The notes under the pieces are model-generated. The model saw only the letters and a list, made by a program, of their open reading frames with translations. It made no database searches and was not told the origin of the DNA. 64,000 nucleotides of DNA from Roseburia hominis (GTDB lineage: Bacteria > Bacillota_I > Bacilli_A > RFN20 > CAG-826), in assembly GCA_963642055.1 (NCBI GenBank), contig CAVIFQ010000009.1:1322-65321 (forward strand), read 5' to 3'. Shown one piece after another: positions 7,413 through 64,000 of the stretch (position 1 is the stretch's first letter; every line of letters begins with the position of its first letter). The translations under genes and the position numbers were made by a program.

Positions 7413-7557
7413 ATGTTGCAAAGATGTTGCAAACCATGTTGCAAAGATGTTGCAAATCGTGTTGCAAGCATTTTTCCAGATTCAGGCAATAAGCTAGGTA
7501 TTATCGGATAAAAATGATGAAAACCAATGTTGCAAGTATGTTGCAAGTATGTTGCAA
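7413..7557 (+). repeat. iteron-like array: 8 copies of RTGTTGCAA (5 copies at 7413-7467, 3 copies at 7527-7557)
   Basis: Read directly: ATGTTGCAAag ATGTTGCAAacc ATGTTGCAAag ATGTTGCAAatc GTGTTGCAA ... ATGTTGCAAgt ATGTTGCAAgt ATGTTGCAA. Period 11-12 nt. Confidence 0.9.
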
Positions 7558-7573
7558 AACAGCGTGATGAAAG

Positions 7574-7843
7574 GTGAGGGATGTGTGCAAAAATAATGTG
7601 CTAAATTTAAGGAAGGGTTATGAGCAAGCTTTAGAAGATACGCTCGATATCACTAATAGACAAAGAGAGATTCTCGACATTCTCACCAGTTCTAAAGATA
7701 TCACGCAAGAGGAGATTGCGGATCAGCTACAGGTCTCCCGTTACACCGTGATGAGGGACCTCAAGTCTTTGAAAGAAAAGGGTTTGGTTTTCAAAGACAA
7801 GACGAAGGAGAAAGGAAGTTGGCAAATAGGGAAGGCCCACTAA
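7574..7843 (+). CDS. small winged-helix DNA-binding protein (start codon uncertain: GTG at 7574, 7583 or 7598)
   Basis: REILDILTSSKDITQEEIADQLQVSRYTVMRDLKSLKEKGLV is a wHTH. Resembles the C-terminal module of the AlbA_2-type proteins at 16746 and 11906 (ends GSWQIGK versus GYWKVN). Confidence 0.55.
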   Translation: MRDVCKNNVLNLRKGYEQALEDTLDITNRQREILDILTSSKDITQEEIADQLQVSRYTVMRDLKSLKEKGLVFKDKTKEKGSWQIGKAH

Positions 7844-7911
7844 AAAACTTTTTCAGCAAGAACACAGATAAAATAGCAGAAATGCCCATACTATCGGGTT
7901 TTTTGATTTAT

Positions 7912-7939
7912 ATTTTTGTTGTATAATGCGTTGTATAAT
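7912..7939 (+). repeat. 28-nt element ATTTTTGTTGTATAATGCGTTGTATAAT (copy 1 of 3)
   Basis: Identical 28-mer recurs at 13418-13445. Related copy at 16407-16429. All on the + strand. Confidence 0.85.
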
Positions 7940-10061: not shown

Positions 10062-10357
10062 GATACCGTCTTTCTTTTGACGTATGCATTAAACGCTGAT
10101 CACGTTTTTAATGCGTTATATCTTGAATGGTGGTCAATGAAGGGCCACGTCCATAACTCGCAGATGGTTTTATCATTGGTTCACTTTTAATAAATTTGGA
10201 CTGTAACTCCAAATTTATTAAAATTCCGACGCAAGCAGCGCAAAAAGAGTGTCATTCTTCGAACGCCGAAAGTGCGTTTTGGTAGAAAAGTACCCCCACA
10301 AAGTTACCAAAATAATATAATAAACATGCATTTTGGTAAAGATAAGCAGGGGATTCG

Positions 10358-11905: not shown

Positions 11906-13252
11906 TTATCTTCGCTTCACGTAGTAGCCGCCGTTTTTGGGTGCTCCTATGAATTCCACGTAATCCGCCAAGTTGCGCTTGAGCGAGTTTTTGACCATGT
12001 CGAGAGTGGGGTTGAAGTGATATTTCCGCATGCCTTTTTGAATCTCGGTGGCATTGCACCCTTCGTTCTTCTTTATGTAAGTCAAGATCATGATTTCGAT
12101 TCTCGATAGTCTTTTTTGCTCACTTCGCTCATATTCCTTTGATTCCTTTTCGTTATCTTTCCGGTAATTGAGATTGGGGAGAGTGAGGATGAAGAAATTG
12201 TCGCTTGGCTCAAAGAGCGGTTTCCTTTCTGAGTCCCTATAAGCATCAAGAATCTTATGGATGCCGGTGCCGAAATTTTCGATGTAGCCAAGCTTATTGA
12301 GGATATTGACCAAACCGGGGTTTCGATACGTCTGGACATCGTTTAGGATATGCCCGAGCCTCGCTTCATATATCCCGCCCGGATTGATGATTCTGACCTT
12401 ATCAATGAAAAACTCGATTTTGATGTTTGACCTGATGAAGTAATTCGCGTGGGCGAAAGCGTTCAAGATAGCTTCGCGCAAGGAAGCCCCGGGATAAGAG
12501 CTGGTTTCTTTCCTTGCCCAGGAGTTTTCGTCGATTATAGAGGAGACATCATTGTAGTTGCCCGCTTTTTCTAGGACGTTATCAAGGATTTTAAGCAGAG
12601 AGCCACTGTATTCCTTTTTGACCAAGAAGTTCCTACTTTCGTCGTATTTGGCGAGCTTCACGATGAGAGGTGACTGATCGGACATCCATAAGGCGAGATT
12701 CGTGTATTCGCCTCTTTTGTTTATCATCCTTAAAGAGGTCATGTTGCCCTCATCAAGAAGAAGATTATGGTTTAAGCAAACCTCCTTGAAATAAGAGAAA
12801 GTGAGTTCCTGCTCTTCGGAGATATCTTCTTCATAGTTACAGTGCCTAGAATCGAGGATCATCAAAAGGATCTCGCTTTCATCTACCATCACCGAGGAAG
12901 TCCCTACTCTTTTGTAGACTCCGCTCGACCTAGGTCCTTTCTCTTTCAGATAGTAGGGCTTATAGGCGCCTTCTTCGATATCGATGACGAATACCCCGTC
13001 ATCGTTAAAATGATAATGGATGAATTTCGAGACGTTTGGATAAAAGGCATCGTTGATCCAATTCGATATCTTCTCCTCCATCTCATCTTTCTCTTTTTCG
13101 CTCCAAACGGCTTCAACTTCTCCTTCATCAGTAACGCCAACGTAAATCGTACCGCCTCTTGTATTGAGGAAGGCGATGATTTCCTTTTTCGTATCGTCAG
13201 TCAAAATCTCTTTGAGCTCGCTTTTCGCGGATTTTACGTATTTCATGCTCAC
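11906..13252 (-). CDS. AlbA_2 (Schlafen-like) domain protein with ATPase-like middle region and C-terminal wHTH
   Basis: N-terminal AFLNTRGGTIYVGVTDEGEV (AlbA_2 signature). REAILNAFAHANY block typical of the HATPase_c_4 region. C-terminal wHTH. Confidence 0.7.
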   Translation of the reverse strand: MSMKYVKSAKSELKEILTDDTKKEIIAFLNTRGGTIYVGVTDEGEVEAVWSEKEKDEMEEKISNWINDAFYPNVSKFIHYHFNDDGVFVIDIEEGAYKPYYLKEKGPRSSGVYKRVGTSSVMVDESEILLMILDSRHCNYEEDISEEQELTFSYFKEVCLNHNLLLDEGNMTSLRMINKRGEYTNLALWMSDQSPLIVKLAKYDESRNFLVKKEYSGSLLKILDNVLEKAGNYNDVSSIIDENSWARKETSSYPGASLREAILNAFAHANYFIRSNIKIEFFIDKVRIINPGGIYEARLGHILNDVQTYRNPGLVNILNKLGYIENFGTGIHKILDAYRDSERKPLFEPSDNFFILTLPNLNYRKDNEKESKEYERSEQKRLSRIEIMILTYIKKNEGCNATEIQKGMRKYHFNPTLDMVKNSLKRNLADYVEFIGAPKNGGYYVKRR

Positions 13253-13258
13253 CCTCCT

Positions 13259-13300
13259 TTTACTGGGTCACCAAAATATAATACATGTTGACCCAGTAAA
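13259..13300. promoter_or_regulatory. perfect 12-bp inverted repeat TTTACTGGGTCA-N18-TGACCCAGTAAA abutting the RBS of 11906..13252
   Basis: Read directly. The spacer contains TATAAT/TATTAT-like AT-rich hexamers on the minus strand. Confidence 0.6.
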
Positions 13301-13417
13301 TCAATAAGCAAGCAAAAAAATTAAGAGAGTATTGGATATTTACAAGGTCATACAGAGTCAATGCATCTAAATATTTCCAGCTATTTTTATTGTGACACGC
13401 TTGAGCGTTTCGCCAAA

Positions 13418-16612: not shown

Positions 16613-16670
16613 AATTTATCACCAACCAATTTATCACCAACCAAAAATGAAAAAATGGTTGGTAATAAAT
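16613..16670 (+). repeat. left copy of about 58-bp direct repeat bracketing 16746..18155
   Basis: AATTTATCACCAACC AATTTATCACCAACC AAAAATGAAAAAA TGGTTGGTAATAAAT (two direct words plus one inverted word). Confidence 0.9.
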
Positions 16671-16745: not shown

Positions 16746-18155
16746 TCAGCAGTTCACCTTCCAATATCCGGTTTTGTTTGAGCCGATCCTTTCGAGCATG
16801 TTCTCGTTTTTCAAGAACTTTATGTTTTTGTCGATCGCGGTTTCGCTCACGCCGATTAAAACAGAGAGGTCACGTTTGGTTATGCTCGGGTTATGCTTCA
16901 TCTCTTCTAAGAGTTTGGTTCTATTTTCGCTCAGCCCGGCTTTGCTGTTGCTTTCGCTTTTGGCTTTGTTTCCGTTTTTCTTACCGACGATTCTATTCAT
17001 ATTGAAAGGAATCGTGACAACGATTGAATTGTCTCTGAATTCGAAGGCTTTCTTTGAATAAGTTTCAACGATTCTAGGCACGCCTCTTCCGGATTTATCG
17101 CTGATTCTCAGTTGAGCGAAAATCTCCGAGAGCTTATCGTTCACCGGCACCGATTCCCCAAGATAAAAGCCTTCGATGGTCTGGGCTGGGGCGATGCTGC
17201 CGCGTGAGAGGATCTCGATTCGATTCGAGAAAACCGAAATCATTGGCTCATTTCCGTTCACCCACTTGTTGTGCAAGACCGCATTCACGATAGCTTCGTT
17301 ATAGGATTTGATGTCGAAGAGCGGAGATTCTTTCCTCTCTTCCTTACGGTTCGTCTCATCGGATTGGATGATGTTCAAGACATCGCCATAGTCCAATAGG
17401 TTCTTAAGTGAATAGAGAATGCAATCGAACCCGAACTCCTTTATCGCATATAAATCCGATCCCTTGCTCTCTCCTTCGAAAATCGAAAGGCGCAGCGGCA
17501 AATGGGAATTGTCCGACAATAGCTGCGCCAAGATGTTGTACTTCCCTTCGCTCGTGAGCAAGGAAAGATTCTTTTTGAAAGTGGCCTTCCTTAACTCTAT
17601 CCCTTTCGATCCGTAATACATGAAAAGCTTCTCGAAAGTCAGATCTTGATAGATGGACTCCGTGTTCACGATAGTGGGGTAGCCAGTGTCTAAAGCCTTA
17701 AACAGTCTTTTCTCGAGCTCCGGATTGTCTTTGATCGACGTCTTCGAGGAGCCAATGCGAACATATCTTTCGCAATTAAAGGAGGTCGGTATGTTGGAGG
17801 CTGCACCGATTATGAGGATCACGACCCTATTGCCTTTTATTTCTCCTTCGATGAATTCCAGTTTGATCTTTGGGTTCAAGTTCCTATTAAGGTAATTCTG
17901 GTAGGGCTCTTTTTTATAATCCTGGAACTGATCGAAGTTCGTGTTCGTGAACTCATGGGTTTCATCATCTATTCCCCAAACAAAATAGCCTTCGCTTTTC
18001 CCAACGAGGGCGCATGAATTCGAGATTGCGCTGACGTATTCCCCGAGCTGAACTGGCTCAAACCAGTTGCTCTTGAACTCAAACCATTCGCGCTCTTTGC
18101 TGTATTGTCTTAGTTCATTGACGATTTTCTCGACCCTTGCATTATCGTTTTTCAT
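16746..18155 (-). CDS. AlbA_2 (Schlafen-like) domain protein with ATPase-like region and C-terminal wHTH
   Basis: EWFEFKSNWF...ISNSCALVGKSEGYFVWGIDDETHE (AlbA_2). EAIVNAVLHNKW block. C-terminal wHTH ITKRDLSVLIGVSETAIDKNIKFLKNENMLERIG. Confidence 0.72.
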   Translation of the reverse strand: MKNDNARVEKIVNELRQYSKEREWFEFKSNWFEPVQLGEYVSAISNSCALVGKSEGYFVWGIDDETHEFTNTNFDQFQDYKKEPYQNYLNRNLNPKIKLEFIEGEIKGNRVVILIIGAASNIPTSFNCERYVRIGSSKTSIKDNPELEKRLFKALDTGYPTIVNTESIYQDLTFEKLFMYYGSKGIELRKATFKKNLSLLTSEGKYNILAQLLSDNSHLPLRLSIFEGESKGSDLYAIKEFGFDCILYSLKNLLDYGDVLNIIQSDETNRKEERKESPLFDIKSYNEAIVNAVLHNKWVNGNEPMISVFSNRIEILSRGSIAPAQTIEGFYLGESVPVNDKLSEIFAQLRISDKSGRGVPRIVETYSKKAFEFRDNSIVVTIPFNMNRIVGKKNGNKAKSESNSKAGLSENRTKLLEEMKHNPSITKRDLSVLIGVSETAIDKNIKFLKNENMLERIGSNKTGYWKVNC

Positions 18156-18167: not shown

Positions 18168-18225
18168 TTTTATTACCAACCATTTTATCACCAACCAAAA
18201 ATGAAAAAAATGGTTGGTAATAAAT
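18168..18225 (+). repeat. right copy of about 58-bp direct repeat bracketing 16746..18155
   Basis: TTTTATTACCAACC ATTTTATCACCAACC AAAAATGAAAAAAA TGGTTGGTAATAAAT. It starts next to the gene's RBS. Confidence 0.9.
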
Positions 18226-18552: not shown

Positions 18553-19944
18553 ATGAGATTCATCGGAAGAGAAGAGGAAAGCACGAAGATAAAGAAAGCC
18601 GTTGAGGCGGATGAGCTAAGAACCATTTTGATGTACGGGAGACGGAGAGTCGGGAAAAGCGAGCTCATCAAGCATGTGAGCAAGGATTATGCGGATAATA
18701 CGATTTATTACGAATGCAAAGAGGTCTCGGAAAAGAGCAACGTAAGCGGCTTATGCGAGGTTCTATCCGATCGCCTCAATCTCCCAAAACTTGCTTTCGC
18801 AGATTTGGAGTCCACCCTCAAGTTCATCTTTGAACTATCCAAAACGAGGAAGCTCATTTTGGTGCTTGATGAATACCCATATCTAAAGAAAACAGTTTCA
18901 GGCATCGACAGCATCCTTCAATCATTGATCGATACCTATAAAGACGAGGCCAAACTCACTTTCATTTTGCTTGGCTCATATATCGATATCATGTCTTCGC
19001 TCTTAGAAGCGAGCAATCCGATGTATGGACGCGTGGATCTGACTATCGACTTAAAACCGATGGATTATTACGATTCGTCTCTCTTTTACCCTTCTTTCTC
19101 GAGCGAAGACAAAGTGAGGCTATATGCTGTTTTCGGCGGCATCCCTTATTACAACCGCCTGATTGATGAGACGAAAAGCGTCAAAGACAACATCAAAGAG
19201 CTCATCGCTTCTGATGGGGCCCGCTTAGAAAACGAGATTCCCCTCTGCTTAAGCGCGGAAATCAAGAAAATCGTGAACGCGAATGAGGTATTTGCCGCCC
19301 TTGCGAAAGGCTACTCAAAGTACGGCGATATCCTCTCGCAGTCCCATGTCTCGAGCGGACCGACGCTCGTCGATGTGCTCGATAAGCTCATAAAGATGGA
19401 ACTCATCGAGAAAGTGAATCCCATCAATGAGGAGAATAACAAAAAGAGGACGAGCTACTCTATCTCCGATAACCTCTCCTTCTTTTATTATAGGTATATA
19501 TTCAGCCACTCTTCAGAGATGAAGATAATGAGCGCTGAATCCTTTTACGATAAATACATCGAGCGTGATTTCGAGGAGCAATATGTGCCGCATCTTTTCG
19601 AAAAAGTCTGCAAAGAATACCTCATTAGGCAAAATAAAGCCGGGAAGATCGATCCCGTTCTCGAAAAGATCGGCAAATATTATTACGACTGCCCGAAAGA
19701 GCATAAAAATGGCGAGTTCGATGTGGTGAGCCTCGATAGCGGTGGCTATATCTTTTACGAAGCCAAATTCAGCAAGAAGCCAATCGATGATGCGACGATC
19801 GAAGAAGAGATAAAGCAAGTAGATATGACGGGATTAGACTGCTACAAGTATGTTTTTATCGGCAAGGAAATGAAGGCTAAAACAAAACGTGATGATGTAA
19901 AATTTATCAATCTAGATGAGTTTTACGGAGATTTTGGCGATTGA
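18553..19944 (+). CDS. AAA/Arch-ATPase family protein with C-terminal PD-(D/E)xK-like motif (DUF234-type)
   Basis: Start moved to MRFIGREEE (RBS AAGGAAGGA upstream). Walker A YGRRRVGKSEL, Walker B LVLDEYPY, nuclease-like GEFDVVSLDSGGYIFYEAKF. Confidence 0.8.
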   Translation: MRFIGREEESTKIKKAVEADELRTILMYGRRRVGKSELIKHVSKDYADNTIYYECKEVSEKSNVSGLCEVLSDRLNLPKLAFADLESTLKFIFELSKTRKLILVLDEYPYLKKTVSGIDSILQSLIDTYKDEAKLTFILLGSYIDIMSSLLEASNPMYGRVDLTIDLKPMDYYDSSLFYPSFSSEDKVRLYAVFGGIPYYNRLIDETKSVKDNIKELIASDGARLENEIPLCLSAEIKKIVNANEVFAALAKGYSKYGDILSQSHVSSGPTLVDVLDKLIKMELIEKVNPINEENNKKRTSYSISDNLSFFYYRYIFSHSSEMKIMSAESFYDKYIERDFEEQYVPHLFEKVCKEYLIRQNKAGKIDPVLEKIGKYYYDCPKEHKNGEFDVVSLDSGGYIFYEAKFSKKPIDDATIEEEIKQVDMTGLDCYKYVFIGKEMKAKTKRDDVKFINLDEFYGDFGD

Positions 19945-28218: not shown

Positions 28219-29802
28219 ATGTCACTATATCTAAATCAAGGCAACCGTTCATTCTTCGAAAACCGCAACGCGAAGATATACGTCGACAAGTCTTTGCTCA
28301 TCAAGAAGACCAACGAGCTCCTCGGCACGCCGGACAAATTCATGTGCGTGACGCGCCCCCGACGCTTTGGGAAGAGCACGGCTTATTCGATGATCAACGC
28401 CTACTATTCGAAAGGTTGCTCCTCCAGAGGACTATTCAAAGGCCTCAAGATATACGACGACCCCTCTTTTGAGGAACATCTCAACAAGCACAACGTGATA
28501 TCGATCGATATGGCCTCGGTCTACAACATGCTCGATGAAGGGGAAGACCTCGTCAAAAAACTCAAAAAATACATCTACCTCGATCTTAAGGAGGCTTTTC
28601 CGGACGCCCATCTCGAGTATGATGCCGATGAGTCATCTTCCCTTGCTTTCGCCCTCAAAGATCTCGGCAACAAGGGGGAGCGGCTCATCCTTCTCATCGA
28701 CGAATGGGATGTGCTCTTCAGAAAAGAGCCCACCAACAAAGCGCTCTGCGACTCCTATATGAAGCTCTTAAGCAGTCTTTTCAAATCTGGCGATGTCTCT
28801 CAGTGCCTCGACCTCGTCTACATGACCGGCATTTTGCCCATCAGGAGATACAGTTCCCAGTCCGACCTCAACAACTTCATCGAATACAACATGATAGATC
28901 CCGACGGTATCCCCGACTCCTTCGGCTTCACCGAGGGGGAGGTCAAAAATCTCTGCGAGAAGTGGAGCATGGACTTCGACGAGGTGAAAAGCTGGTACGA
29001 CGGGTACCGCCTCAAAGGAATGGAGATATACAACCCAAGGTCAGTGGTCAGGGCCATCACGAGCCGCGAATGCAGCGATTATTGGATCTCGACTGCCAGC
29101 ATGGATCCCGTCAAGGAATACATGAACTATGACGGAGGTGCGCTCAAAGGCGAGATCATAAAGATGCTTGCCGGCGAGAAGGTGCCAGTCAACGTTACGC
29201 TCTTCCAGAACGACCTAACGCAAGTGAACAGCCGCGACGCCGCCCTCACAGTGCTCATCCACCTCGGATACCTAGGCTACGACAAAGAGAGCAAGGAATG
29301 CTTCATCCCCAACAAAGAGATAACTGACGAGATAATGAACGCCATCCAGGATATCCCCTGGCCCGACGTCTATAACCCGATATCGGAATCGGAGAAACTC
29401 CTCGAAGAGACCCTCAAAGGCAACACCGGCTACATCGACGAGACCTTCGACAAGAACCACGCCGACCTCGTTACCCCCTTCAACAAGAACGACGAGGGCG
29501 TGCTCTCGATAATCGCCAGGATCTCGTACAAAAAAGCGGAAAGATACTACAAGATCACCTCCGAGCCGAACTGCCCCACGGGGAGGGCCGATCTGCTCTT
29601 CACCCCGAGAGTGCCAGGCTATATCCCGATCATCATCGAGTTGAAGGTCGATCACTCTCCGGAGAAAGCGATTCAGCAGATAAAGGACAGGAACTACGTC
29701 TCGACGCTCAATGGATATCACGGCAAAGTCATGCTTTTGGGCATCGCTTACGAATCGAAGAGTCTGAAGCATCGTTCGAAGATTGAGTACGTCACTTTGT
29801 AG
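28219..29802 (+). CDS. AAA-ATPase-like protein with C-terminal PD-(D/E)xK nuclease-like domain (PDDEXK_9-type)
   Basis: TRPRRFGKST P-loop variant, Walker B LLIDEWD, C-terminal GRADLLFTP...IIIELKVD. Paralog of 62632..>64000. Confidence 0.8.
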   Translation: MSLYLNQGNRSFFENRNAKIYVDKSLLIKKTNELLGTPDKFMCVTRPRRFGKSTAYSMINAYYSKGCSSRGLFKGLKIYDDPSFEEHLNKHNVISIDMASVYNMLDEGEDLVKKLKKYIYLDLKEAFPDAHLEYDADESSSLAFALKDLGNKGERLILLIDEWDVLFRKEPTNKALCDSYMKLLSSLFKSGDVSQCLDLVYMTGILPIRRYSSQSDLNNFIEYNMIDPDGIPDSFGFTEGEVKNLCEKWSMDFDEVKSWYDGYRLKGMEIYNPRSVVRAITSRECSDYWISTASMDPVKEYMNYDGGALKGEIIKMLAGEKVPVNVTLFQNDLTQVNSRDAALTVLIHLGYLGYDKESKECFIPNKEITDEIMNAIQDIPWPDVYNPISESEKLLEETLKGNTGYIDETFDKNHADLVTPFNKNDEGVLSIIARISYKKAERYYKITSEPNCPTGRADLLFTPRVPGYIPIIIELKVDHSPEKAIQQIKDRNYVSTLNGYHGKVMLLGIAYESKSLKHRSKIEYVTL

Positions 29803-30089: not shown

Positions 30090-30110
30090 GGGAGTGTGAC
30101 CTTCTACAAA

Positions 30111-30242
30111 TCAGTTGTACGATAAGGCTTTTCGCTTGTTCACTTTCCAATATCCGCCTTTATCGGGGCCAACGTGGGCGATTTCGCCGCTTTTTTGCAT
30201 TTTGTTCAGATGGTGCCTAACGCTTCCATCAGTTTCATTTTG
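30111..30242 (-). pseudogene. 3' remnant of an AlbA_2-type gene (wHTH tail only)
   Basis: Hand translation gives QNETDGSVRHHLNKMQKSGEIAHVGPDKGGYWKVNKRKALSYN*. It aligns with the tail of 16746..18155 (SETAIDKNIKFLKNENMLERIGSNKTGYWKVNC). No upstream ATPase part. Confidence 0.45.
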
Positions 30243-30299
30243 TTAAGATATAAAGTTTGCTTTTCAGTCTCTTGTCATATAGCAGTTAAACTGGGCTGA

Positions 30300-30333
30300 C
30301 AACCAAAAAGTAACCAGAAAACAACCAGAAAAT
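30300..30333 (+). repeat. 3 x 11-nt word (C/T)AACCA(A/G)AAAA
   Basis: CAACCAAAAAG TAACCAGAAAA CAACCAGAAAA, upstream (minus-strand sense) of the remnant. Confidence 0.7.
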
Positions 30334-46021: not shown

Positions 46022-46121
46022 ATGCGGTTATATTTCTCTCTTACCCAAATTGTCGCAGTTTCCGCCCTTAAAGTTAAGATGCATCTGTTTGGCCACCCCT
46101 TTCGAGTGACTGGTCAAAATG

Positions 46122-46234
46122 AGTTTTTTGATACTTTGGGCTCAAAAGCACGATGAAAGTATCAAAAAAGTCGGTTGGTCAATGGAGTTTTTTGAGTGTT
46201 TAGGCTCAATTTCTGGCTGAAACACTCAATTTTC
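46122..46234 (+). repeat. left copy of about 113-bp direct repeat (two hairpin modules) abutting the stop codon of 46235..47665
   Basis: Module 1: TTTTTTGATACTTT-N18-AAAGTATCAAAAAA. Module 2: TTGAGTGTTT-N18-AAACACTCAA. Confidence 0.9.
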
Positions 46235-47665
46235 TCATTTGAAAAGCTCGTCGATGGTGATGACGGATGAAAAATCGTCTTTGTACGGGCTATCCGCTAG
46301 ACCATAGGTGGTGATGAGAGTAGGGACGATCCGATACTCCTTTTCAACTCTTTTCCTCAAGACATCGATCTTGTTCATGAGATTGAGGTGATATTCCTTG
46401 TCGACTTTGAATTCCGCGCTGAGGAATTTCATCTCGCAGAGGGAGATGATGTTGTCTTTGCGTTCGATAAGCAAATCGATCTGCGCGCCTTTTTCCTCTT
46501 TTTCTTTCATGAACCACGAGAATCGCATGGTGTTGATGCCTCTTATGCCGAGGGCGCGTTTGATTTCATCGAGGTGGGAAAAGCAGAGATTCTCGAAGGA
46601 GACGCCAACCCAATTGTTCTTATTGGAATCAGAGAAGAAATCATGGTCGAGCGAAGTTTGCTCATATACGTATTTGAGATAGAAAAGGCAAAATGGATCG
46701 ATCACCTTGTAGCGTTTTTTGTTCTTGCTCTCCTTGTATGGTACGTATTCGATGATGAAATCGCTGTGCTTTAAGGCTTTTAAAGTGTCCCCTACGATCG
46801 CCCCATCGGCGATATTGAGCTCCTTTAAAAGTTCTTTCCTCGTGTAGCCTTCTCTCTTCTTTGCGAGCGTCAAAATGAATTTTTTGGTGAGCTTCTCGTT
46901 ATCGAAGCTCGATGAGAGCAGATTATCAAATTCATTAGCCATCTTCGCGTCTTTTTTGAAGAAGAGATTGTCGATGTTCTCTTCTAGAGACATATGGTCG
47001 TCATAATAAGAAAGATAGTAGGGGATGCCGCCCAAAACCATATTCAGCATCGCGATTTTATAATTGCTTGTGTTGACGCCGAGGCTTCTTAAAAACTGTG
47101 CCGATTCCTTCAAGGAGAAAGGGGAGAGGCGAATGCTATAGGTAAGGCGGTCGTATAAGCCGCCGTGAGCGTTTATGAGATGATTATTGATCCAAGAGAT
47201 GGCAGAGCCACAGACAATGAACATAAGGTCTTTTTGCTTGCTTCCCCATTGGTTCCAGAACCAGGAAAAAGAACTCAAGAAAGAGGAACGCGGGGTATCT
47301 AGCCAAGGGAGCTCGTCAATGAAGACAACGTGCCTATTCCCATCGCGCTTGCTCTCCAATAAAGAGATTAGGAGCGTGAAAGCCTCAATCCAGGAACGAG
47401 GCTTCTTCCCTTTCTTCAATCCTTGGGAGAGGAGAGAACCGTAAAAAGATTCTAGCTGCGCCCTCATTTTCCCTCTCTCGTCATTTTGAAGGTCATCGGG
47501 GGCTGAACCGATGTGAGTGAAAATCATCTCATCGGCGAAAAGATTGTTTATCAAATACGTTTTGCCGACCCTTCTTCGCCCGTATACGGCCACAAGCTCT
47601 GGCTTGTCACTCGCGAAAAGGCGTTTCAGTTCTTTTATTTCTTTCTCTCTTCCGATGATTTCCAT
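46235..47665 (-). CDS. AAA/Arch-ATPase family protein with C-terminal PD-(D/E)xK-like motif (DUF234-type; paralog of 10358..11794)
   Basis: Walker A YGRRRVGKTYL, Walker B VFIDELPW, nuclease-like QIDLLIERKDNIISLCEMKF. Confidence 0.82.
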   Translation of the reverse strand: MEIIGREKEIKELKRLFASDKPELVAVYGRRRVGKTYLINNLFADEMIFTHIGSAPDDLQNDERGKMRAQLESFYGSLLSQGLKKGKKPRSWIEAFTLLISLLESKRDGNRHVVFIDELPWLDTPRSSFLSSFSWFWNQWGSKQKDLMFIVCGSAISWINNHLINAHGGLYDRLTYSIRLSPFSLKESAQFLRSLGVNTSNYKIAMLNMVLGGIPYYLSYYDDHMSLEENIDNLFFKKDAKMANEFDNLLSSSFDNEKLTKKFILTLAKKREGYTRKELLKELNIADGAIVGDTLKALKHSDFIIEYVPYKESKNKKRYKVIDPFCLFYLKYVYEQTSLDHDFFSDSNKNNWVGVSFENLCFSHLDEIKRALGIRGINTMRFSWFMKEKEEKGAQIDLLIERKDNIISLCEMKFLSAEFKVDKEYHLNLMNKIDVLRKRVEKEYRIVPTLITTYGLADSPYKDDFSSVITIDELFK

Positions 47666-47710
47666 CTTCGTTGCCTCCTTCTTTTATGATGATTATACAC
47701 TTTTAAAAAT

Positions 47711-47824
47711 AGTTTTTTGATACTTTAGGCTCAAAATCGCGTCGAAAGTATCAAAAAAGTCCGTTGGTTGATGGAGTTTTTTGAGTATTTCGACTTAAAT
47801 TTGAGCCGAAACACTCAATTTTTT
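47711..47824 (+). repeat. right copy of about 113-bp direct repeat, about 45 nt upstream of the start of 46235..47665
   Basis: Same two-module structure. By eye about 85 percent identical to 46122-46234. Confidence 0.9.
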
Positions 47825-47931
47825 AATTTTGGATTTGATGGTTTTTCTTATCGTTTCTCTCTTCTGCGAGAAAGTAGACACCGGTAAAGCCTTCTTTGAG
47901 AAAGGACCCGCCAAATGTATACTGCTCTTAG

Positions 47932-49706: not shown

Positions 49707-49882
49707 GTGTGTTGAATCGTGTGTTGCGTCATGTGTTGTTAAGCCAATTAAAAGACTTCGCAAAGAGCAAAAGGTTGGAAAATTCCATTTTTAGGTCATT
49801 TTCAAGGTTGGAAAATTCAAGAAAATGGGCGTTTTCAAGGTTGGAAAATTCAAGAAAAGTGGCCTTTTCGAGGTTGGAAAAG
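49707..49882 (+). repeat. two word arrays: 3 x GTGTGTTG (period 12-13) then 4 x AGGTTGGAAAA(TTCAAGAAAA) (period about 33)
   Basis: Read directly upstream of 49938. Confidence 0.88.
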
Positions 49883-49937: not shown

Positions 49938-51263
49938 ATGCTAAAGAGAAAGTTTGAGGCAAAACTAGAAGAATGGCTGAAGAGTGACAAAGTATTGCTC
50001 GTCGATGGGGCTAGACAAGTCGGAAAAAGCTTTTTGATCGACTATTTCTGCAAAAAGCATTTCGCGAATTACGTCCAGATTAACCTCGCTTTGGAAAGCG
50101 GGGCAATCGAGGCTTTCCGCTCCGTGAAAGACGTCGATGGCTTTTTATTGGCAGTCAGTGCCTTTTCATCTTCTCCTCTCGTTCCTAGAGAAACCGTCAT
50201 TTTCATCGATGAGATACAACTTGCGCAGGGTGTTGATTTTCTCACGCTTTCCAAAGGCCTCGCGCTCGATGGGCGTTATCGGTTCATCTTCTCGGGCTCG
50301 TTACTTGGAGTGAATGATTTCACCCCAAGGCTAAATCCGACAGGGTATTTGTACAAAGAGACGATGTATCCTCTCGATTTCGAGGAATTTCTCTACGCGA
50401 ATGGCGTGAATGAAGACGTTATCGCGACTTTGGAATCGTGTTTCAAGGAAAGAAAAGAGGTTCCTTCTTTCATTCACGAAAAGATGATTGATCTCTTCTA
50501 TCTATATCTATTGGTTGGAGGGATGCCAGATGCCGTGAATAGCTTTCTAGCGAGCAATGACCTCCAGACGATGAGAATAGTTTTCAAATCCATCGAATCC
50601 TTCTACCACGACGATATTGCGAAGTACGCCAAAAACGAGGATAAGCCCTACATATTGAGCGCTTACGATTTACTTCCGAGTGAACTGAACAGCAAATCCA
50701 AGCGTTTTATCCTCTCTAAGCGCGGAAATGGGTATTCCCTCAAGCGGAGCGAGAATGACTTCTTGTGGATGAAAGACGCTGGGATCGCCCTACCCGTCTA
50801 TAACGTCGATGAGCCGAAAATACCGCTTTTACTAAGCAAAAACAGCACGCTTTTCAAACTTTTCGCGAATGATGTGGGTTTACTTTCCTACCGCCTTTTC
50901 AATACGGGCGTCGAAAAGAAAATCCTCGCCCACGCAAAAGACATCAATTTTGGGAGTATCTTCGAAAACGCGGTCGCGATGGAATTAAACGCCCACGGCT
51001 TCAAAGATCATTTGTTCTATTTCTCGAGCAAGAAGCAAGGTGAGGTCGATTTCTTGCTTGAATACGAAGGCAAACTGTTGCCGATTGAAGTGAAATCAGG
51101 CAAAGACTACAAACGTCATGTGGCTCTTAACAATCTGCTCTCCAATAAGGAATACGATATTGAAGAAGCCTATATCTTCGGCAACTGCAATCTGGAAAGA
51201 AAAGGCAAGAAGACGTACTTCCCGATTTATATGATCGACTACGTCCGCCAAGAAGAGATTTAG
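49938..51263 (+). CDS. AAA_14-type ATPase with C-terminal PD-(D/E)xK-like motif (DUF4143-type)
   Basis: Start at MLKRKFE. Walker A DGARQVGKSFL, Walker B IFIDEIQ, C-terminal GEVDFLLEYEGKLLPIEVKSGK. Confidence 0.8.
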   Translation: MLKRKFEAKLEEWLKSDKVLLVDGARQVGKSFLIDYFCKKHFANYVQINLALESGAIEAFRSVKDVDGFLLAVSAFSSSPLVPRETVIFIDEIQLAQGVDFLTLSKGLALDGRYRFIFSGSLLGVNDFTPRLNPTGYLYKETMYPLDFEEFLYANGVNEDVIATLESCFKERKEVPSFIHEKMIDLFYLYLLVGGMPDAVNSFLASNDLQTMRIVFKSIESFYHDDIAKYAKNEDKPYILSAYDLLPSELNSKSKRFILSKRGNGYSLKRSENDFLWMKDAGIALPVYNVDEPKIPLLLSKNSTLFKLFANDVGLLSYRLFNTGVEKKILAHAKDINFGSIFENAVAMELNAHGFKDHLFYFSSKKQGEVDFLLEYEGKLLPIEVKSGKDYKRHVALNNLLSNKEYDIEEAYIFGNCNLERKGKKTYFPIYMIDYVRQEEI

Positions 51264-60366: not shown

Positions 60367-62340
60367 TTATTTGTTTATCTTCAAACTCGCGAATAACGAT
60401 GCGAATTTGGAATCCTTTTTGTAGAAGGCGATAGGTAGGCCGAGTGGCGAAGCAACTTCGCCGTGTCCGCTTGCTACCTCTTTCCCGGTGAAGAACTGCA
60501 CCCATTCTCCTTTTGGGAGATAGTATTTATGGACGCTTTCTTTCTCGCGGAGAACCGGGGAGACGAGGATATCCTCGCCAAAGAGATACTCTTTCTTGTT
60601 GGTGTAGCATTCCTCTTCATCATAATGGAGGAAGAGAGGGCGGATCATCGGGGCATTGCGCTCGTAATATTCCTCGTATACGTGCTCGCGGTAGCTCTTT
60701 AATTCAGCGAAGAGGCGAGAATTCGTGACGAATTCACCGTAAACGAGCTCGTTATCATATTGGACGTTATCTTGAGGACGGTTCCCTTCATGGGTCCGAT
60801 AAATCGGCGAGAAGATGTTCATCTCGCTCCACCGGAGGAAGAGCTCCGCGCTTCTTTTCATGGGGTAAAGAGCCATGATGGTGGTATAGCCCCCGATATC
60901 GCTGTGGATGATGCCAGCCCCTGAGCAGGATAAGGATAAGGATGCGGGGATGACGCTCCCTAAACCGTATTCATCGCTCCAGTCGACGTGCTGATCGCCG
61001 TTCCACATCGAGTTGGTGAATTGGAAGGTATGTCCATAAGCGGCGCGGGAGAAATAGAAGACCTCGTCTTCTTTGCCGCATTCTTTCACCGCATCGTACG
61101 AACACTTGGCCCAAAGGGTTGGCCAGCGGTTATGGAGTTTATCGCTCTTTCCGCCATAAGCGACGCTGTCAGTTGGTAGATACTCGCCAAAATCGGCCAT
61201 CCAGCCCGATAAGCCGTATTCGATCATGTTCTTCTTGATGATATCGATATACCACCTTCTCGCGGTGGGATTGGTGAGATCGACGATGCCGGCATTGAAA
61301 GTGGTGCTTTTGATATGGTAGACCGAGCCATTCTTGTGGCGGATGAGGAAGCCTTTCTTCTTGGCTTCTAGATACTGTGGCGCCCCTTCCTTCAAGAAGG
61401 TATTGATGTAGCCTAAAAAGCGGACGCCGTCTTTATTGAGCATCTTGATGATCTCTTTGAGATTCGGGTAGAGCTTCTCATCGGCTTCCCAGTTCCAATA
61501 CACTTGATAGCCAAAGGCGGTGACGTGGTTGCCACACCAGTCCTGGCACCAGATGGCGGCCACCTTAAGTCCTTTTTTCTTCGCTTCTTCGTATTTCTTG
61601 AGGAGTACTTCGCTTCCTCCTTGGATAGCGAGAATCACGCCATCATTCACCCAAGAGGGGACTTTCGGCATTTTCCCGACGATGCGCGAGATGGTGCACG
61701 TCAAATCAAAGAGATTATCCTCGGCGAAGAGCGAGATCGACTGCGGGATTTCCCGGAACTTGATGAAGAGCTCGTCTTTCTTGAAAGAGAGGACGCCATA
61801 ATTATCTTCGTGGCAGTAAAACCCATACCCCTTCGAGGAGATGAAAGAAGGGGTGGCGCAGTAAGTCTGATGCTCTTTATAAGGCGAGATATGGTCGGGA
61901 TCAGGGCCAAAGAGGCGGCTTTTTAATTGCTTCTTGGCGATTTTCAGCACTTGCTGATGCTCACTCACCCAGATAGGCACGTCTTTGCCTTTCAAGTCGA
62001 GCTCGCTGTACTGCTCTCCGCATCCATAAATATGCTCATCCTCGAAGGTCTTGAAGCGGAGGGAGAAGCGGTTATAGCCCGGATCGACGTGGAAGTGGAA
62101 TTTGATGTAATCGTCTTCCTTATCGACGATGATCTCGGCTTGGACTTTTCCATCCGTCAATATGTAGCGGTTCCCGTCATTGAAGGAATAGACGAGCTTA
62201 TGCCGATCGACGATCGCATCTTTCGTGGTGAAAGAGCCGCGCTTCATCTTGTAGCGCGCTTTCCCTTTGCCGATCGTTAGATAACATTCCTTGCTCTCTA
62301 TTTGCCTTAAAAAATAGTCATAAAGCTCTTCTTTTTTCAT
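60367..62340 (-). CDS. GH31 alpha-glycosidase, YihQ (sulfoquinovosidase)-like subgroup
   Basis: Nucleophile region GWMADFGEYLP, WNGDQHVDWS acid/base region, HSDIGGYT. 657 aa. Confidence 0.75.
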   Translation of the reverse strand: MKKEELYDYFLRQIESKECYLTIGKGKARYKMKRGSFTTKDAIVDRHKLVYSFNDGNRYILTDGKVQAEIIVDKEDDYIKFHFHVDPGYNRFSLRFKTFEDEHIYGCGEQYSELDLKGKDVPIWVSEHQQVLKIAKKQLKSRLFGPDPDHISPYKEHQTYCATPSFISSKGYGFYCHEDNYGVLSFKKDELFIKFREIPQSISLFAEDNLFDLTCTISRIVGKMPKVPSWVNDGVILAIQGGSEVLLKKYEEAKKKGLKVAAIWCQDWCGNHVTAFGYQVYWNWEADEKLYPNLKEIIKMLNKDGVRFLGYINTFLKEGAPQYLEAKKKGFLIRHKNGSVYHIKSTTFNAGIVDLTNPTARRWYIDIIKKNMIEYGLSGWMADFGEYLPTDSVAYGGKSDKLHNRWPTLWAKCSYDAVKECGKEDEVFYFSRAAYGHTFQFTNSMWNGDQHVDWSDEYGLGSVIPASLSLSCSGAGIIHSDIGGYTTIMALYPMKRSAELFLRWSEMNIFSPIYRTHEGNRPQDNVQYDNELVYGEFVTNSRLFAELKSYREHVYEEYYERNAPMIRPLFLHYDEEECYTNKKEYLFGEDILVSPVLREKESVHKYYLPKGEWVQFFTGKEVASGHGEVASPLGLPIAFYKKDSKFASLFASLKINK

Positions 62341-62551
62341 AGAGGCCTTTCTTGCCTTGCGGCTAATTAATTAAGTGACTTAAAAATCATAGAGCGCCCT
62401 CTTTCTCTTTGCAAGGGCGAGGCAATAAAGAAGACCAGTCATTGCCTTATTTCGACCTTCATCTTCCTTTTCGTAAATCGCTCAATACTTGCCTAGTAAG
62501 TGGTGAGGCAGCATGAAAAGCCTCATCAGATAGCGAATTTTTAGACAAATC

Positions 62552-62631
62552 GTGTTGTTTGATGTTGTCGGATGTTGCCAAAAATGAAGAAATGTTGCTA
62601 GAGGTTGTATAAAAGGAGGAATTGTTGCTAG
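62552..62631 (+). repeat. array of 6-7 TGTTG-core words immediately upstream of 62632
   Basis: GTGTTGTTT GATGTTGTCG GATGTTGCCA ... AATGTTGCTAGA GGTTGTATAA ... ATTGTTGCTAG ATG. Confidence 0.8.
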
Positions 62632-64000
62632 ATGAATGAAGATATCATAAACTTCTCTCAAGCGGAGAATGATGAAATGAGCAAGAAACCAGTGCCTTTG
62701 GGCATCGAATTCTATGAGACGGTGAGCAAGGACTGCTACTACGTGGATAAAACGGCCATGATCGAGGATTTAGCCTCCTATCCAGAAGGCACTTGCCTCC
62801 TTTTCTCGCGCCCACGAAGATTCGGGAAGACGCTCGCTTTATCGATGCTGCACACCTTTTTCGAGATGAGCGAGGTCGATAAAAGCCCTTATTTCTCCGA
62901 CGAGTACATCTGGGGAAAGAAAGAGGTGGTGGAAGAGGAATTCCAAGCTTATCCCCTCATCCATATCAATATGAAGAACGTGATAGGGACCGATTTCCCT
63001 TCTTGGAAAGAGAAACTCAAAGAAGCGATGAGAAAGGAATACGACCGCCATCAAACTCTTTTGCCTTATCTAGATTCTTTCGATCAAGCCTATTTTTCGA
63101 GCATTCTTAATAAAACGGTCGATGATGATGGTTTATCGAGCTCTTTGTCGCGCTTATCGGAAATGCTACACAAGCATTACGAAAAGAAGGTCGTCATTTT
63201 GATCGATGAATATGACGCTCCTACCTATTATGCGAAAGAATATTCCTATTACGATGAAGCCATAACTTTCCTGAAGCAGTTTTATGGCGAGAGTCTTAAG
63301 ACGAATCCTTCTCTCCGCCTCGCTGTTTTAACAGGGATCCTTGAAATCGGGAAGGAGTCCCTTTTCTCCGGACTCAATAATCTCATCGCCAATTCCCCTT
63401 TATCGAAGCGCTTCGCTTCTTCTTTCGGCTTCACGGAGAGTGAGACAAAAGCGATTTTGGACTATTACGGCTACTCCTCCAAAGCCGATGAAGTGCGTAG
63501 ATTCTATGGTGGCTACCGCTTCGGTGACCAAGATATTTACAGCGCTCTTTCGATCCTCTCCTTCATCCAAAATGGCGGCGAAATCGGCTTATATTGGAGC
63601 AACACCGGTGAGAACAAATTGCTGCGCGAAGTCTGTTCGCCTTCTTCTTTAGAGTGCCTTTTGCCCTTACTCGGCGGAGAAAGCATCGACAGCGAGATCG
63701 ACTTATCGGAGAACTATGAGGATCTCGATGATTCGCGCGTATCTTTATGCTCGCTCCTTTTTATGAGCGGCTATTTGACCATCAAAGAGCGATACGGCGT
63801 GAATCTTTATCGCCTCGCCTTGCCTAACGAAGAGATAAAACGGGTCTTCATGCGCGAGATAAATAAGCGTTACTTGTCTACGCGCGACATCATTAAATCC
63901 CACAACATCAAAAAGGCTTTCCTCGATGGGGATGAAGAGAGCATCAAGCGCTTACTGGAAGAATATCTTCTTTCCTCTTTTTCCTATTACGAACTGAACC
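62632..64000 (+). CDS. AAA-ATPase-like protein (PDDEXK_9-type family), 3' end outside the window; not in the ORF track
   Basis: Hand translation from the ATG after AAGGAGGA: MNEDIINFSQ...YYVDKTAMIEDL...FSRPRRFGKTL...VILIDEYD. Open to base 64000. Paralog of 28219..29802. Confidence 0.8.
   Translation, partial: MNEDIINFSQAENDEMSKKPVPLGIEFYETVSKDCYYVDKTAMIEDLASYPEGTCLLFSRPRRFGKTLALSMLHTFFEMSEVDKSPYFSDEYIWGKKEVVEEEFQAYPLIHINMKNVIGTDFPSWKEKLKEAMRKEYDRHQTLLPYLDSFDQAYFSSILNKTVDDDGLSSSLSRLSEMLHKHYEKKVVILIDEYDAPTYYAKEYSYYDEAITFLKQFYGESLKTNPSLRLAVLTGILEIGKESLFSGLNNLIANSPLSKRFASSFGFTESETKAILDYYGYSSKADEVRRFYGGYRFGDQDIYSALSILSFIQNGGEIGLYWSNTGENKLLREVCSPSSLECLLPLLGGESIDSEIDLSENYEDLDDSRVSLCSLLFMSGYLTIKERYGVNLYRLALPNEEIKRVFMREINKRYLSTRDIIKSHNIKKAFLDGDEESIKRLLEEYLLSSFSYYELN

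What the first reader, a model, noticed from the sequence alone, without database searches (positions are those of the whole stretch)
7413..64000. Swarm of stand-alone ATPase/nuclease-motif genes, each carrying its own private array of short sequence words
Seven P-loop ATPase genes (10358, 18553, 28219, 40134, 46235(-), 49938, 62632) and two AlbA_2-type genes (11906(-), 16746(-)) occur as single-gene units. Six of the ATPases show a C-terminal D...E.K (PD-(D/E)xK-like) motif that I can read directly.
Most units have a different 8-13-nt word reiterated 3-12 times next to the start:
- TGTTGCAA at 7413
- TTTTGGTA at 10277
- TTTACTGGGTCA at 13259
- TTATCACCAACC at 16613 and 18168
- CGTTATTTGTTTC, TTTCATATCG and AAACCGAGT at 18229-18528
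- AACCAGAAAA at 30300
- CTTAACAA at 39952
- hairpin modules at 46122 and 47711
- GGTTGGAAAA at 49771
- TGTTGC at 62552
Ordinary promoters, terminators or CRISPR do not explain this. Hypothesis: the words are cognate DNA sites for the wHTH or nuclease domain of the adjacent protein (autoregulation or a self-mark), or they are the boundaries of gene cassettes.
Basis: partly seen in the sequence, partly recalled or inferred. Interest (0 to 1): 0.8.

Follow-up and report, generated by a model that had tools for sequence, protein, structure and literature searches.

The report
Defence-candidate ATPase genes with private operator arrays
Each of a swarm of stand-alone, ORC/Cdc6-like ATPase(-nuclease) and Schlafen-like genes carries its own array of short repeated DNA boxes on its promoter. 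The same layout recurs in more than 130 relatives from several phyla, which points to self-recognition and autoregulation in very common but untested candidate phage-defence genes.

Summary
Seven P-loop ATPase genes and two AlbA_2 genes are present, and most carry a gene-specific repeated word just upstream of the start codon.

- **Families.** PADLOC files A10358, A46235 and A18553 as PDC-S27 and A49938 as PDC-S01. Both are untested single-gene defence candidates.
- **Generality.** Each family has its own array geometry, and the word differs from gene to gene.
  - PDC-S01: 3-6 direct repeats at a 33-nt period, in 55 of 56 loci, and still present at 27% protein identity.
  - PDC-S27: two inverted-repeat modules spanning about -112 to -10.
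  - The 350-aa A40134 family: 7-15 boxes at a 10-nt period.
  - AlbA_2: three boxes at 11-15 nt, or an inverted repeat around the -10 element.
- **Unit structure.** No neighbouring gene is conserved. Homology between related loci in different contexts runs only from the outer edge of the array to the stop codon.
- **Protein fold.** AlphaFold models show AAA+ plus winged helix, with a PD-(D/E)xK domain in A49938. The best structural matches are archaeal Orc1/Cdc6 bound to origin DNA.
- **Best reading.** The words are cognate operator boxes bound cooperatively by the adjacent protein, giving autoregulation. Binding is inferred, not shown.
Five nuclease motifs are readable, not six. A28219 has no array. 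Two arrays belong to wHTH remnants, not to ATPases. The PDDEXK_9 family is inconsistent.

The parts
7414..7557 (+). TGTTGCAA array: 5 copies (7414-7467, period 11-12) and 3 copies (7528-7557, period 11) abutting the small wHTH ORF
7574..7843 (+). 89-aa ORF consisting of a winged helix (CasR/Csa3-like). Probably a remnant or mini-version of an AlbA_2-type regulator
10277..10338 (+). TTTTGGTA in the order direct, inverted, direct; a TATAAT lies between the 2nd and 3rd copy
   Evidence: same layout in homologue L122
10358..11794 (+). A10358: ATPase_2 AAA+ / wHTH / PD-(D/E)xK protein, PADLOC PDC-S27
11906..13252 (-). B11906: AlbA_2 + HATPase_c_4 protein
13259..13300 (.). 12-nt inverted repeat TTTACTGGGTCA/TGACCCAGTAAA flanking the predicted -10 of B11906; the right arm abuts the RBS
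16616..16668 (.). Second copy of the B16746 operator module (3 words), lying downstream of the gene
   Evidence: (D10)
16746..18155 (-). B16746: AlbA_2 + HATPase_c_4 + HTH_24 protein
18170..18223 (.). B16746 operator module: TTATTACCAAC inverted repeat plus an extra arm next to the RBS. The word is conserved in homologues of 60-76% identity
18237..18528 (+). Three further word pairs or triplets upstream of A18553: CGTTATTTGTTTC x2, TTTCATATCG x2, AAACCGAGT (inverted, direct, direct). Individually weak
18553..19944 (+). A18553: ATPase_2 + DUF234 protein (PDC-S27, weaker match)
28219..29802 (+). A28219: AAA-ATPase_like + PDDEXK_9 protein. No array upstream
30100..30332 (-). Degenerate AlbA_2 unit: TTTTCTGGTTG x3 array (30299-30332) plus a gene remnant left by a 1.24-kb internal deletion. 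Intact in strain L002
39952..40085 (+). CTTAACAA array: 11-13 boxes at a 10-nt period in three blocks. The last box supplies the -35 (TTAACA-17-TAAAAT, 40066-40094). Copy number differs between strains
40134..41189 (+). A40134: 351-aa AAA+ + lid + C-terminal winged helix. Orc1/Cdc6-like fold, no nuclease domain
46116..46240 (.). Downstream copy of the A46235 double inverted-repeat module, lying upstream of the 252-aa ORF
   Evidence: (D2)
46235..47665 (-). A46235: AAA+ / wHTH / PD-(D/E)xK protein, PADLOC PDC-S27
47705..47829 (.). Upstream double inverted-repeat module of A46235 (arms TTGAGTGTTTCG-like and TTGATACTTTCG-like), followed by TGTATAAT
49773..49881 (+). GGTTGGAAAA boxes x4 at a 33-nt period, ending at the predicted -35 (TTGATT-17-CATAAT, 49883-49911)
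49938..51263 (+). A49938: AAA_14 + DUF4143 (AAA+ / wHTH / PD-(D/E)xK) protein, PADLOC PDC-S01
62553..62630 (+). Loose TGTTG(C/T) array (5-6 copies), weak
62632..64000 (+). A62632: AAA-ATPase_like protein, cut off by the end of the window

Best explanation
Each unit is a self-contained module with two parts. One part is a gene for a sequence-specific, oligomerising DNA-binding protein. That protein is either an ORC/Cdc6-like AAA+ ATPase with a winged helix (usually with a C-terminal PD-(D/E)xK nuclease) or an AlbA_2/Schlafen-like protein with a C-terminal winged helix. The other part is an array of that protein's own recognition boxes laid over its promoter.

Several protomers bind the phased boxes cooperatively and cover the -35, -10 or +1 region. 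The gene therefore sets its own, probably low, expression level. The box word has diverged together with each protein, so the many paralogues in one genome do not cross-talk.

Shown:
- The arrays exist.
- They are specific to these genes.
- Their geometry is characteristic of each family.
- The word is gene-specific and is inherited with the gene.
- The arrays overlap predicted promoters.
- The proteins have AAA+ plus winged-helix folds.

Inferred:
- The adjacent protein is the binder.
- Binding is cooperative.
- The effect is repression.
- Release from the array is coupled to the presumed defence function.
For: Association within the window:
- Strong repeats occur upstream of 6 of 10 units. 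Among 17 other genes only one has a comparable repeat, and that gene carries a copy of an ATPase module.

PDC-S27, 68 homologues at 44-64% identity from Bacillota, Bacteroidota, Spirochaetota and Pseudomonadota:
- Two inverted-repeat modules lie at about -112..-62 and -60..-10.
- The word differs in each homologue.
- The loop of the proximal module holds the -10 (Bacillota) or TAnnTTTG (Bacteroidales).
- Arms of at least 12 nt occur in 41/68 targets against 21/194 control upstream regions, p = 5e-15.

PDC-S01, 56 non-redundant metagenome loci:
- 55 have 3-6 direct repeats at a 33-nt period. The nominal control count was 26 of 112, p = 6e-23; by my inspection most of those 26 were the same intergenic region called under another ORF.
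- The layout persists at 27-31% identity in Agathobacter, Phocaeicola, Segatella, Acinetobacter and Vibrio plasmids.

A40134 family:
- Four homologues at 48-69% identity sit in unrelated contexts. All have period-10 arrays built from other words.
- The array is kept in 8 strains.

AlbA_2:
- Homologues at 60-76% identity keep the same word, TTATTACCAAC, around a TATAAT.
- Other subfamilies have three boxes at an 11-12-nt period with other words.

Unit structure:
- No conserved neighbouring gene.
- Homology between related loci in different contexts runs only from the outer edge of the array to the stop codon.

Proteins:
- HTH_24 is found in B16746.
- AlphaFold models have pLDDT 89 and 87.5 and show AAA+ plus winged helix.
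- The top Foldseek hits are Orc1/Cdc6-origin DNA complexes 2qby and 2v1u.
- hhalign links PDC-S27 to both of the other families.

Promoters:
- Predicted promoters use or straddle the words.
Against: - There is no binding or expression data.
- In A49938 the array ends just upstream of the predicted -35. That position is as compatible with activation as with repression.
- A28219 and four of five PDDEXK_9 homologues have no array. A18553 and A62632 are weak.
- I did not show co-variation between winged-helix residues and word positions. The entropy profile of the wHTH region is not distinctive.
- About a quarter of PDC-S27 units also carry the module after the stop codon. Simple autoregulation does not require that.
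- Direct repeats at a 10-nt period seem tight for 40-kDa AAA+ protomers.
Confidence: 0.65

Rival explanations
1. The arrays are not primarily regulatory. They are nucleation or storage platforms, or a 'self-mark', on which the ORC-like AAA+ nuclease assembles as a filament. This would resemble Orc1/Cdc6 on ORB boxes or DnaA on phased boxes. The effector would be held inactive or poised on the chromosome until a trigger releases it.
For: - The fold is most similar to Orc1/Cdc6-origin DNA complexes.
- The direct, head-to-tail repeats at 33 nt and 10 nt match the head-to-tail way AAA+ proteins assemble.
- There are more boxes (up to 15) than repression needs.
- Module copies lie on both sides of some genes.
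Against: - The arrays always sit at the promoter of the protein's own gene and overlap -35, -10 or +1. That position is what autoregulation predicts and what a storage site does not require.
- AlbA_2 proteins show the same behaviour without an AAA+ domain.
Confidence: 0.15
2. The arrays are recombination or end sites of mobile single-gene cassettes. The encoded ATPase-nuclease would recognise them in order to excise or insert the unit.
For: - The units occur as single genes in unrelated contexts across phyla.
- Homology stops at the outer edge of the array.
- Direct copies of the module flank B16746, A46235 and about 10 of 43 PDC-S27 homologues.
- In strain L003 the two flanking copies show gene conversion.
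- The sequence to the right of the 30333 array differs between strains.
Against: - No empty site, target-site duplication, circular junction or linked recombinase was found.
- Downstream copies are absent from most units and from 55 of 56 PDC-S01 loci.
- A40134 and the AlbA_2 proteins have arrays but no nuclease domain.
- The position of the arrays relative to the start codon is fixed, as expected for a promoter element.
Confidence: 0.1
3. The words are bound by a host factor, or they are slippage-prone promoter repeats that give phase variation. The adjacent protein plays no part.
For: - The number of 10-nt boxes varies between strains that encode an identical protein, giving intergenic lengths of 200, 210 and 230 nt.
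- Several words contain -35-like hexamers (TTAACA, TTGAAA, TTGCAA).
Against: - The words differ between paralogues in one genome and travel with the gene across phyla. A host factor cannot explain that.
- The geometry is specific to each protein family, not to each host.
- Control genes in the same genomes lack the arrays.
Confidence: 0.05

Closest known systems
PADLOC phage-defence candidates PDC-S27 and PDC-S01
   Same: - A10358 and A46235 match the PDC-S27 model at E about 1e-173.
- A49938 matches the PDC-S01 model at E 1e-160.
- The literature describes both as single-gene ATPase + PD-(D/E)xK candidates. PDC-S01 is called the fourth most common defence across prokaryotes (PMC12988326).
   Different: Nothing in the papers I could search mentions upstream box arrays, DNA-binding specificity or autoregulation for these families. 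Their defence activity is itself untested.
Archaeal Orc1/Cdc6 initiators with ORB / mini-ORB repeats next to the orc1/cdc6 gene
   Same: - The fold is AAA+ + lid + winged helix. The top Foldseek matches are Orc1/Cdc6 bound to origin DNA.
- The gene lies next to an array of its presumed recognition boxes.
- That multiple short repeated boxes are the hallmark of archaeal origins is from my own knowledge.
   Different: - Sequence membership fails: TIGR02928 scores 15-16 bits against a cut-off of 181.
- There are many copies per chromosome, in bacteria, and most have an added nuclease domain.
- There is no evidence of an unwinding element or of replication.
DnaA boxes / dnaA autoregulation and plasmid Rep-iteron systems
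   Same: An initiator-type protein binds phased direct repeats and represses its own promoter through them (own knowledge). The 10-11-nt and 33-nt phasing seen here keeps the sites on one face of the helix.
   Different: - The protein families differ.
- The units sit in ordinary chromosomal contexts, for example between a GNAT gene and rimP-nusA.
- They are not at replicon origins.
ParR-parC type II partition centromere (two blocks of five 11-bp iterons flanking the par promoter; own knowledge)
   Same: Blocks of 10-11-nt direct repeats straddle the promoter that drives the binding protein's own gene. This is closest in appearance to the A40134 and TGTTGCAA arrays.
   Different: ParR is a small ribbon-helix-helix protein encoded beside a separate actin-like ATPase. 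Here a single AAA+-wHTH protein is involved, and there is no plasmid context.
Dedicated wHTH regulators of defence systems (BrxR, CapW; WYL-type; own knowledge)
   Same: A winged-helix repressor sits on an inverted repeat at the promoter of a defence locus and is thought to release it on infection.
   Different: Those regulators are separate genes with WYL sensor domains that control multi-gene systems. Here the DNA-binding domain is fused to the presumed effector, and the unit is a single gene.

Membership tests
PADLOC PDC-S27 | Full-length match to the PDC-S27 profile HMM | tested here: met
   A10358 E 2.9e-173; A46235 E 5.4e-173; A18553 E 1.4e-47
PADLOC PDC-S27 | Anti-phage activity | not testable with these tools
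   The literature lists it as an untested candidate
PADLOC PDC-S01 | Full-length match to a PDC-S01 profile HMM | tested here: met
   A49938 E 1.4e-160
PD-(D/E)xK nuclease superfamily | Conserved D ... (D/E)xK motif on a C-terminal beta-sheet | tested here: met
   The motif is present in A10358, A18553, A28219, A46235 and A49938. E369, D371, E384 and K386 are invariant in the PDC-S01 alignments and lie on strands 368-385 of the model. The motif is absent from A40134. The C-terminus of A62632 lies outside the window.
Pfam ATPase_2 / DUF234, AAA_14 / DUF4143, AAA-ATPase_like / PDDEXK_9, SLFN_AlbA_2 / HATPase_c_4 | Scores above the Pfam gathering thresholds | tested here: met
   Exception: the DUF4143 score of A10358 is below its cut-off.
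Orc1/Cdc6 replication initiators | AAA+ + lid + C-terminal winged-helix fold | tested here: met
   Foldseek 2qby_A E 1.3e-12 for A40134; 2v1u_A E 9e-7 for A49938. TM-scores are only 0.3-0.5.
Orc1/Cdc6 replication initiators | Sequence membership (TIGR02928 at or above 181 bits) | tested here: not met
   15.6-16.4 bits
Orc1/Cdc6 replication initiators | Boxes flank an unwinding element and support replication | not tested
   No analysis of unwinding elements was made. The multi-copy chromosomal context argues against it.
Iteron plasmid replicon | Tandem direct repeats next to the rep gene on a replicon | tested here: not met
   Direct repeats are present, but the protein belongs to no Rep family and the loci are chromosomal with housekeeping neighbours.
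CRISPR array | Repeats of 24-48 nt separated by unique spacers of similar length; cas genes | tested here: not met
   The periods are 10-33 nt in total, with 3-15 copies, always at a promoter, and no cas genes.
Integron gene cassette | attC site at the cassette 3' end and a linked integron integrase | tested here: not met
   The arrays lie 5' of the gene, and no conserved neighbouring gene was found in 124 loci. attC structure was not modelled.
Known RNA families | Rfam covariance-model match at the arrays | tested here: not met
   Only three tRNAs reach the gathering score in the window.

The most novel reading that the evidence does not exclude
The array-plus-gene units may be a previously unrecognised class of self-anchoring ORC/Cdc6-like immune or selfish modules. 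In this reading the private box array is the platform on which the AAA+-nuclease polymerises. It is also, in some lineages, the border at which the single-gene cassette recombines. That would explain why homology ends at the array edge and why module copies flank some genes. The array would then be part of the machine, not merely its operator.
Probability: 0.2. Interest if true: 0.85.

Novelty: new variant of a known kind. Interest (0 to 1): 0.66.

Why it matters
[quoted passage not shown] A published survey counts tens of thousands of copies. No mechanism, trigger or DNA target is known for them.

If the arrays are the proteins' own recognition sites, three things follow:
- Every such gene comes with a free read-out of its DNA-binding specificity.
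- The number and phasing of the boxes predict an oligomeric, initiator-like mode of binding.
- There is a ready experimental handle: EMSA, reporter fusions, and cryo-EM on the native array.

The finding also explains how dozens of paralogues can coexist in one genome without cross-talk. And it gives annotators a simple DNA signature for recognising live units as against decayed ones.

Tried and rejected
Searches that found nothing:
- Word-start literature searches for DUF234/DUF4143 returned unrelated papers. Whole-word searches found only catalogues.
- Single-protein scans of viral contigs for B16746, B11906 and A40134 found nothing.
- The first metagenome scan found nothing.
- Two alignments were too divergent to seed scans.
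- Sequence searches of the PDB found no relatives.

Wasted or uninformative look-ups:
- One contig look-up was wasted on wrong minus-strand coordinates, and one protein was not on record.
- I therefore could not test presence or absence of the A46235 unit across strains.

Statistics that were too weak or needed correction:
- The statistic based on 8-mers with one mismatch was too noisy for low-copy long words. I replaced it with longest-repeat, periodicity and inverted-repeat statistics.
- The automatic controls for the 33-nt test were contaminated by the target's own intergenic region. I inspected them by eye.
- Per-column entropy did not single out the winged helix as hypervariable.
- I considered a residue-to-base co-variation test and did not run it. 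Fifty-six phylogenetically structured sequences cannot separate co-inheritance from co-evolution.

Explanations rejected:
- RNA structure: the distal modules lie upstream of the promoter, the direct repeats cannot pair, and there is no Rfam hit.
- CRISPR.
- Integron attC.
- Replication origin.

Full report
**What the window is.** The window comes from an uncultured gut bacterium. Near-identical contigs occur in several human-gut MAGs, and sources name the closest annotated proteins 'Bacilli bacterium'. From 7.4 kb onward the window is rich in defence-type genes:
- a Schlafen-group helicase at 8184-10061;
- a GmrSD/HEC-06-like enzyme at 13506-16124;

**The genes.**
- Pfam confirms the family assignments.
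- PADLOC places A10358, A46235 and, more weakly, A18553 in PDC-S27. It places A49938 in PDC-S01.
- The literature I could search treats both families as untested single-gene candidates made of an ATPase fused to a PD-(D/E)xK domain. It calls PDC-S01 the fourth most common defence across prokaryotes (PMC12988326; PMC3424549).
- The window paralogues are only 24-36% identical, so they are old, not recent duplicates.

**The observation.**
- All the listed words are present at the stated places.
- In the 150 nt upstream of each gene I measured the longest exact direct or inverted repeat. It is at least 11 nt for six of the ten units: the small wHTH ORF, B11906, B16746, A40134, A46235 and A49938.
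- Among 17 other genes the same length is reached only by the 252-aa ORF, which carries a duplicate of the A46235 module.
- A10358 reaches 10 nt. A18553 and A62632 reach 9 nt. A28219 has nothing.

- The D...E.K motif is readable in five proteins, not six. A40134 ends in a winged helix.
- The TGTTGCAA array precedes an 89-aa winged-helix ORF, not an ATPase.
- The AACCAGAAAA array belongs to an AlbA_2 gene that has lost 1.24 kb internally in this strain and is intact in strain L002.

**Generalisation, the main result.**

*PDC-S27.*
- I fetched 80 genomic loci that encode relatives of A46235 (44-64% identity), from Bacillota, Bacteroidota, Spirochaetota and Succinivibrionaceae.
- Almost all of them show two tandem inverted-repeat modules, at roughly -112..-62 and -60..-10.
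- The arms are 10-23 nt long and their sequence differs from locus to locus.
- The loop of the proximal module contains the -10 hexamer in Bacillota and the TAnnTTTG element in Bacteroidales (sequences printed; the promoter elements are my reading). The left arm therefore lies upstream of the promoter, which excludes an RNA hairpin.
- Arms of at least 12 nt occur in 41/68 targets and 21/194 control upstream regions (p = 5e-15).

*PDC-S01.*
- Of 56 non-redundant metagenomic loci, 55 have 3-6 copies of a 14-25-nt word at a 33-nt period.
- The nominal control count was 26 of 112 (p = 6e-23). On inspection most of those 26 were the same intergenic region called under another ORF or from the divergent neighbour.
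- Many words share a GAAAAGT-like core. They differ by subfamily: GGTTGGAAAAGT, CGGAATAATTCC, ACAAAATGAC, AAAACGTCGCA.
- Five distant homologues (27-31% identity) on plasmids of Agathobacter, Phocaeicola, Segatella, Acinetobacter and Vibrio keep units of about 33 nt.

*A40134 family.*
- The family has 599 detected relatives.
- Four loci at 48-69% identity, in unrelated chromosomal contexts, all carry 7-10 boxes at a 10-nt period. The boxes are arranged in blocks, with the words ATGACAACAA, AATGACAAAG or ATGACCAAAG.
- In eight strains that encode the identical protein, the intergenic length is 200, 210 or 230 nt and the box count changes with it.

*AlbA_2.*
- Relatives of B16746 at 60-76% identity keep the same word, TTATTACCAAC. 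It forms an inverted repeat around a TATAAT, with an extra arm before the start codon.
- Other subfamilies have three boxes at 11-12 nt with other words.

*PDDEXK_9.*
- This family is inconsistent: one of five plasmid homologues has an array.

**The array and the gene form one unit.**
- No neighbouring gene is conserved around either large family.
- I compared related loci that sit in different contexts. For PDC-S27, nucleotide homology begins 109-136 nt upstream of the start codon and ends within about 13 nt of the stop codon.
- For PDC-S01, homology begins at the first box: 82 nt upstream for L147/L157 and 144-175 nt for L100 against its relatives.
- The array is therefore inherited with the gene and marks its upstream border.

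**The proteins.**
- AlphaFold models built on alignments of database homologues are confident (pLDDT 89 and 87.5).
- A40134 is AAA+ + lid + C-terminal winged helix.
- A49938 adds a C-terminal beta-sheet that carries the invariant E369, D371, E384 and K386.
- The best PDB matches for both models are archaeal Orc1/Cdc6 proteins in complex with origin DNA: 2qby, 2v1u, 1w5t and 1fnn. TM-scores are modest, and sequence membership in the Orc1/Cdc6 family fails.
- Profile-profile comparison links PDC-S27 to the A40134 family across the ATPase and winged helix (93% probability). It links PDC-S27 to PDC-S01 over the full length (83% probability).
- B16746 has a Pfam HTH_24 domain.

**Interpretation.** The simplest account is that the words are the cognate boxes of the adjacent protein and that the arrays are operators.

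In support:
- The boxes sit on the core promoter. Examples are the word used as -35 in TTAACA-17-TAAAAT at 40066-40094 and the inverted-repeat arms on either side of TATATT at 13275-13304.
- The boxes are phased at 10, 11 or 33 nt, which keeps them on one face of the helix.
- Direct, head-to-tail repeats fit the head-to-tail way AAA+ proteins oligomerise.
- Private words would insulate the paralogues from one another.

This works like DnaA, Orc1, Rep or ParR acting on their repeated boxes. Those comparisons rest on my own knowledge. Membership in any of those families is not supported.

Binding, cooperativity, the sign of regulation and any link to defence are all inferred.

**What does not fit neatly.**
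- B16746, A46235 and about 10 of 43 PDC-S27 homologues carry a second copy of the distal module directly after the stop codon.
- In strain L003 that downstream copy has been converted towards the upstream copy.
- In PDC-S01 such downstream copies are rare, 1 in 56.
- These facts, together with the homology breakpoints at the array edge, keep two rival readings alive: an assembly platform, or a recombination site of a mobile cassette.
- I found no empty site, no target duplication and no linked recombinase.

**Verdict.** Its main hypothesis is the best-supported explanation. It is a new variant of a known kind, autoregulatory box arrays of initiator-like DNA-binding ATPases, attached to very abundant and uncharacterised defence candidates.

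Noticed in passing
window 7918-7939, 13424-13445, 16407-16429: The tandem pair GTTGTATAAT-N2/3-GTTGTATAAT occurs three times, always on the + strand. A 28-nt stretch is identical between the first two copies. Each copy lies 170-280 nt from the start of a defence gene (SLFN helicase, B11906, GmrSD). For two of them the orientation would give transcription antisense to a minus-strand gene. Its function is unknown.
   Followed up: partly
window 7414-7554, 16406, 49709-49738, 62553-62577: Tandem TGTTG boxes spaced 10-12 nt apart occur 11 times, against 0.24 expected by chance, and all are on the + strand. They might be sites for one shared regulator, for example the small wHTH ORF, acting across the island.
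   Followed up: partly
window 39952-40085 versus L001-L008: The number of CTTAACAA boxes differs between strains that encode an identical A40134 protein. Intergenic lengths are 200, 210 and 230 nt. The array therefore behaves like a variable-number tandem repeat that changes in whole helical turns.
   Followed up: yes
L003 11177-11301 versus window 46116-46240 and 47705-47829: In strain L003 the module downstream of the A46235 homologue is 92.8% identical to the window's upstream module. It is only 85.6% identical to the window's downstream module. This indicates gene conversion between the two flanking copies.
   Followed up: partly
window 45263-46021 (-): A 252-aa ORF with no Pfam, NCBIfam or PADLOC match lies directly behind the downstream copy of the A46235 module. 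It may be co-regulated with A46235.
   Followed up: partly
window 30234-33066 versus L002 1280-2903: Two strain differences occur at the tRNA-Trp locus. The AlbA_2 gene is internally deleted in the window. A 2.7-kb segment carrying an 825-aa lipoprotein gene replaces 329 nt of L002, and it starts exactly at the outer edge of the TTTTCTGGTTG array.
   Followed up: yes
window 4010-6451 (-) and 30500-32977 (-): Two paralogous predicted lipoproteins of about 820 aa, 35% identical, with a signal peptide and a lipobox. They match no family. The third large ORF, 52269-55178, is unrelated to them.
   Followed up: partly
L018 about 3060-3200 (downstream of the PDC-S27 gene): An orphan array built from a different word (TTTTTCGA..TCGAAAAA, three modules) lies between two downstream copies of the gene's own module, with no ATPase gene attached. 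Arrays can evidently outlive their gene.
   Followed up: no
L185 (Acinetobacter) and L186 (Vibrio) upstream regions: In proteobacterial PDC-S01 homologues each ~33-nt unit is itself a palindrome (ACACTTTT-ATGCGCAT-AAAAGTGT), not a simple direct repeat.
   Followed up: no
L178 (Butyrivibrio plasmid pNP243) 170-380: One PDDEXK_9-type homologue has five GATATATTGCCGCAA boxes in both orientations upstream of its start codon. Four other homologues have none.
   Followed up: partly
window 42845-42890: The 10-nt inverted repeat ATCGGTAAAA lies in the divergent promoter region between the amine-oxidase and AMP-binding genes. It looks like an ordinary operator unrelated to the finding.
   Followed up: no
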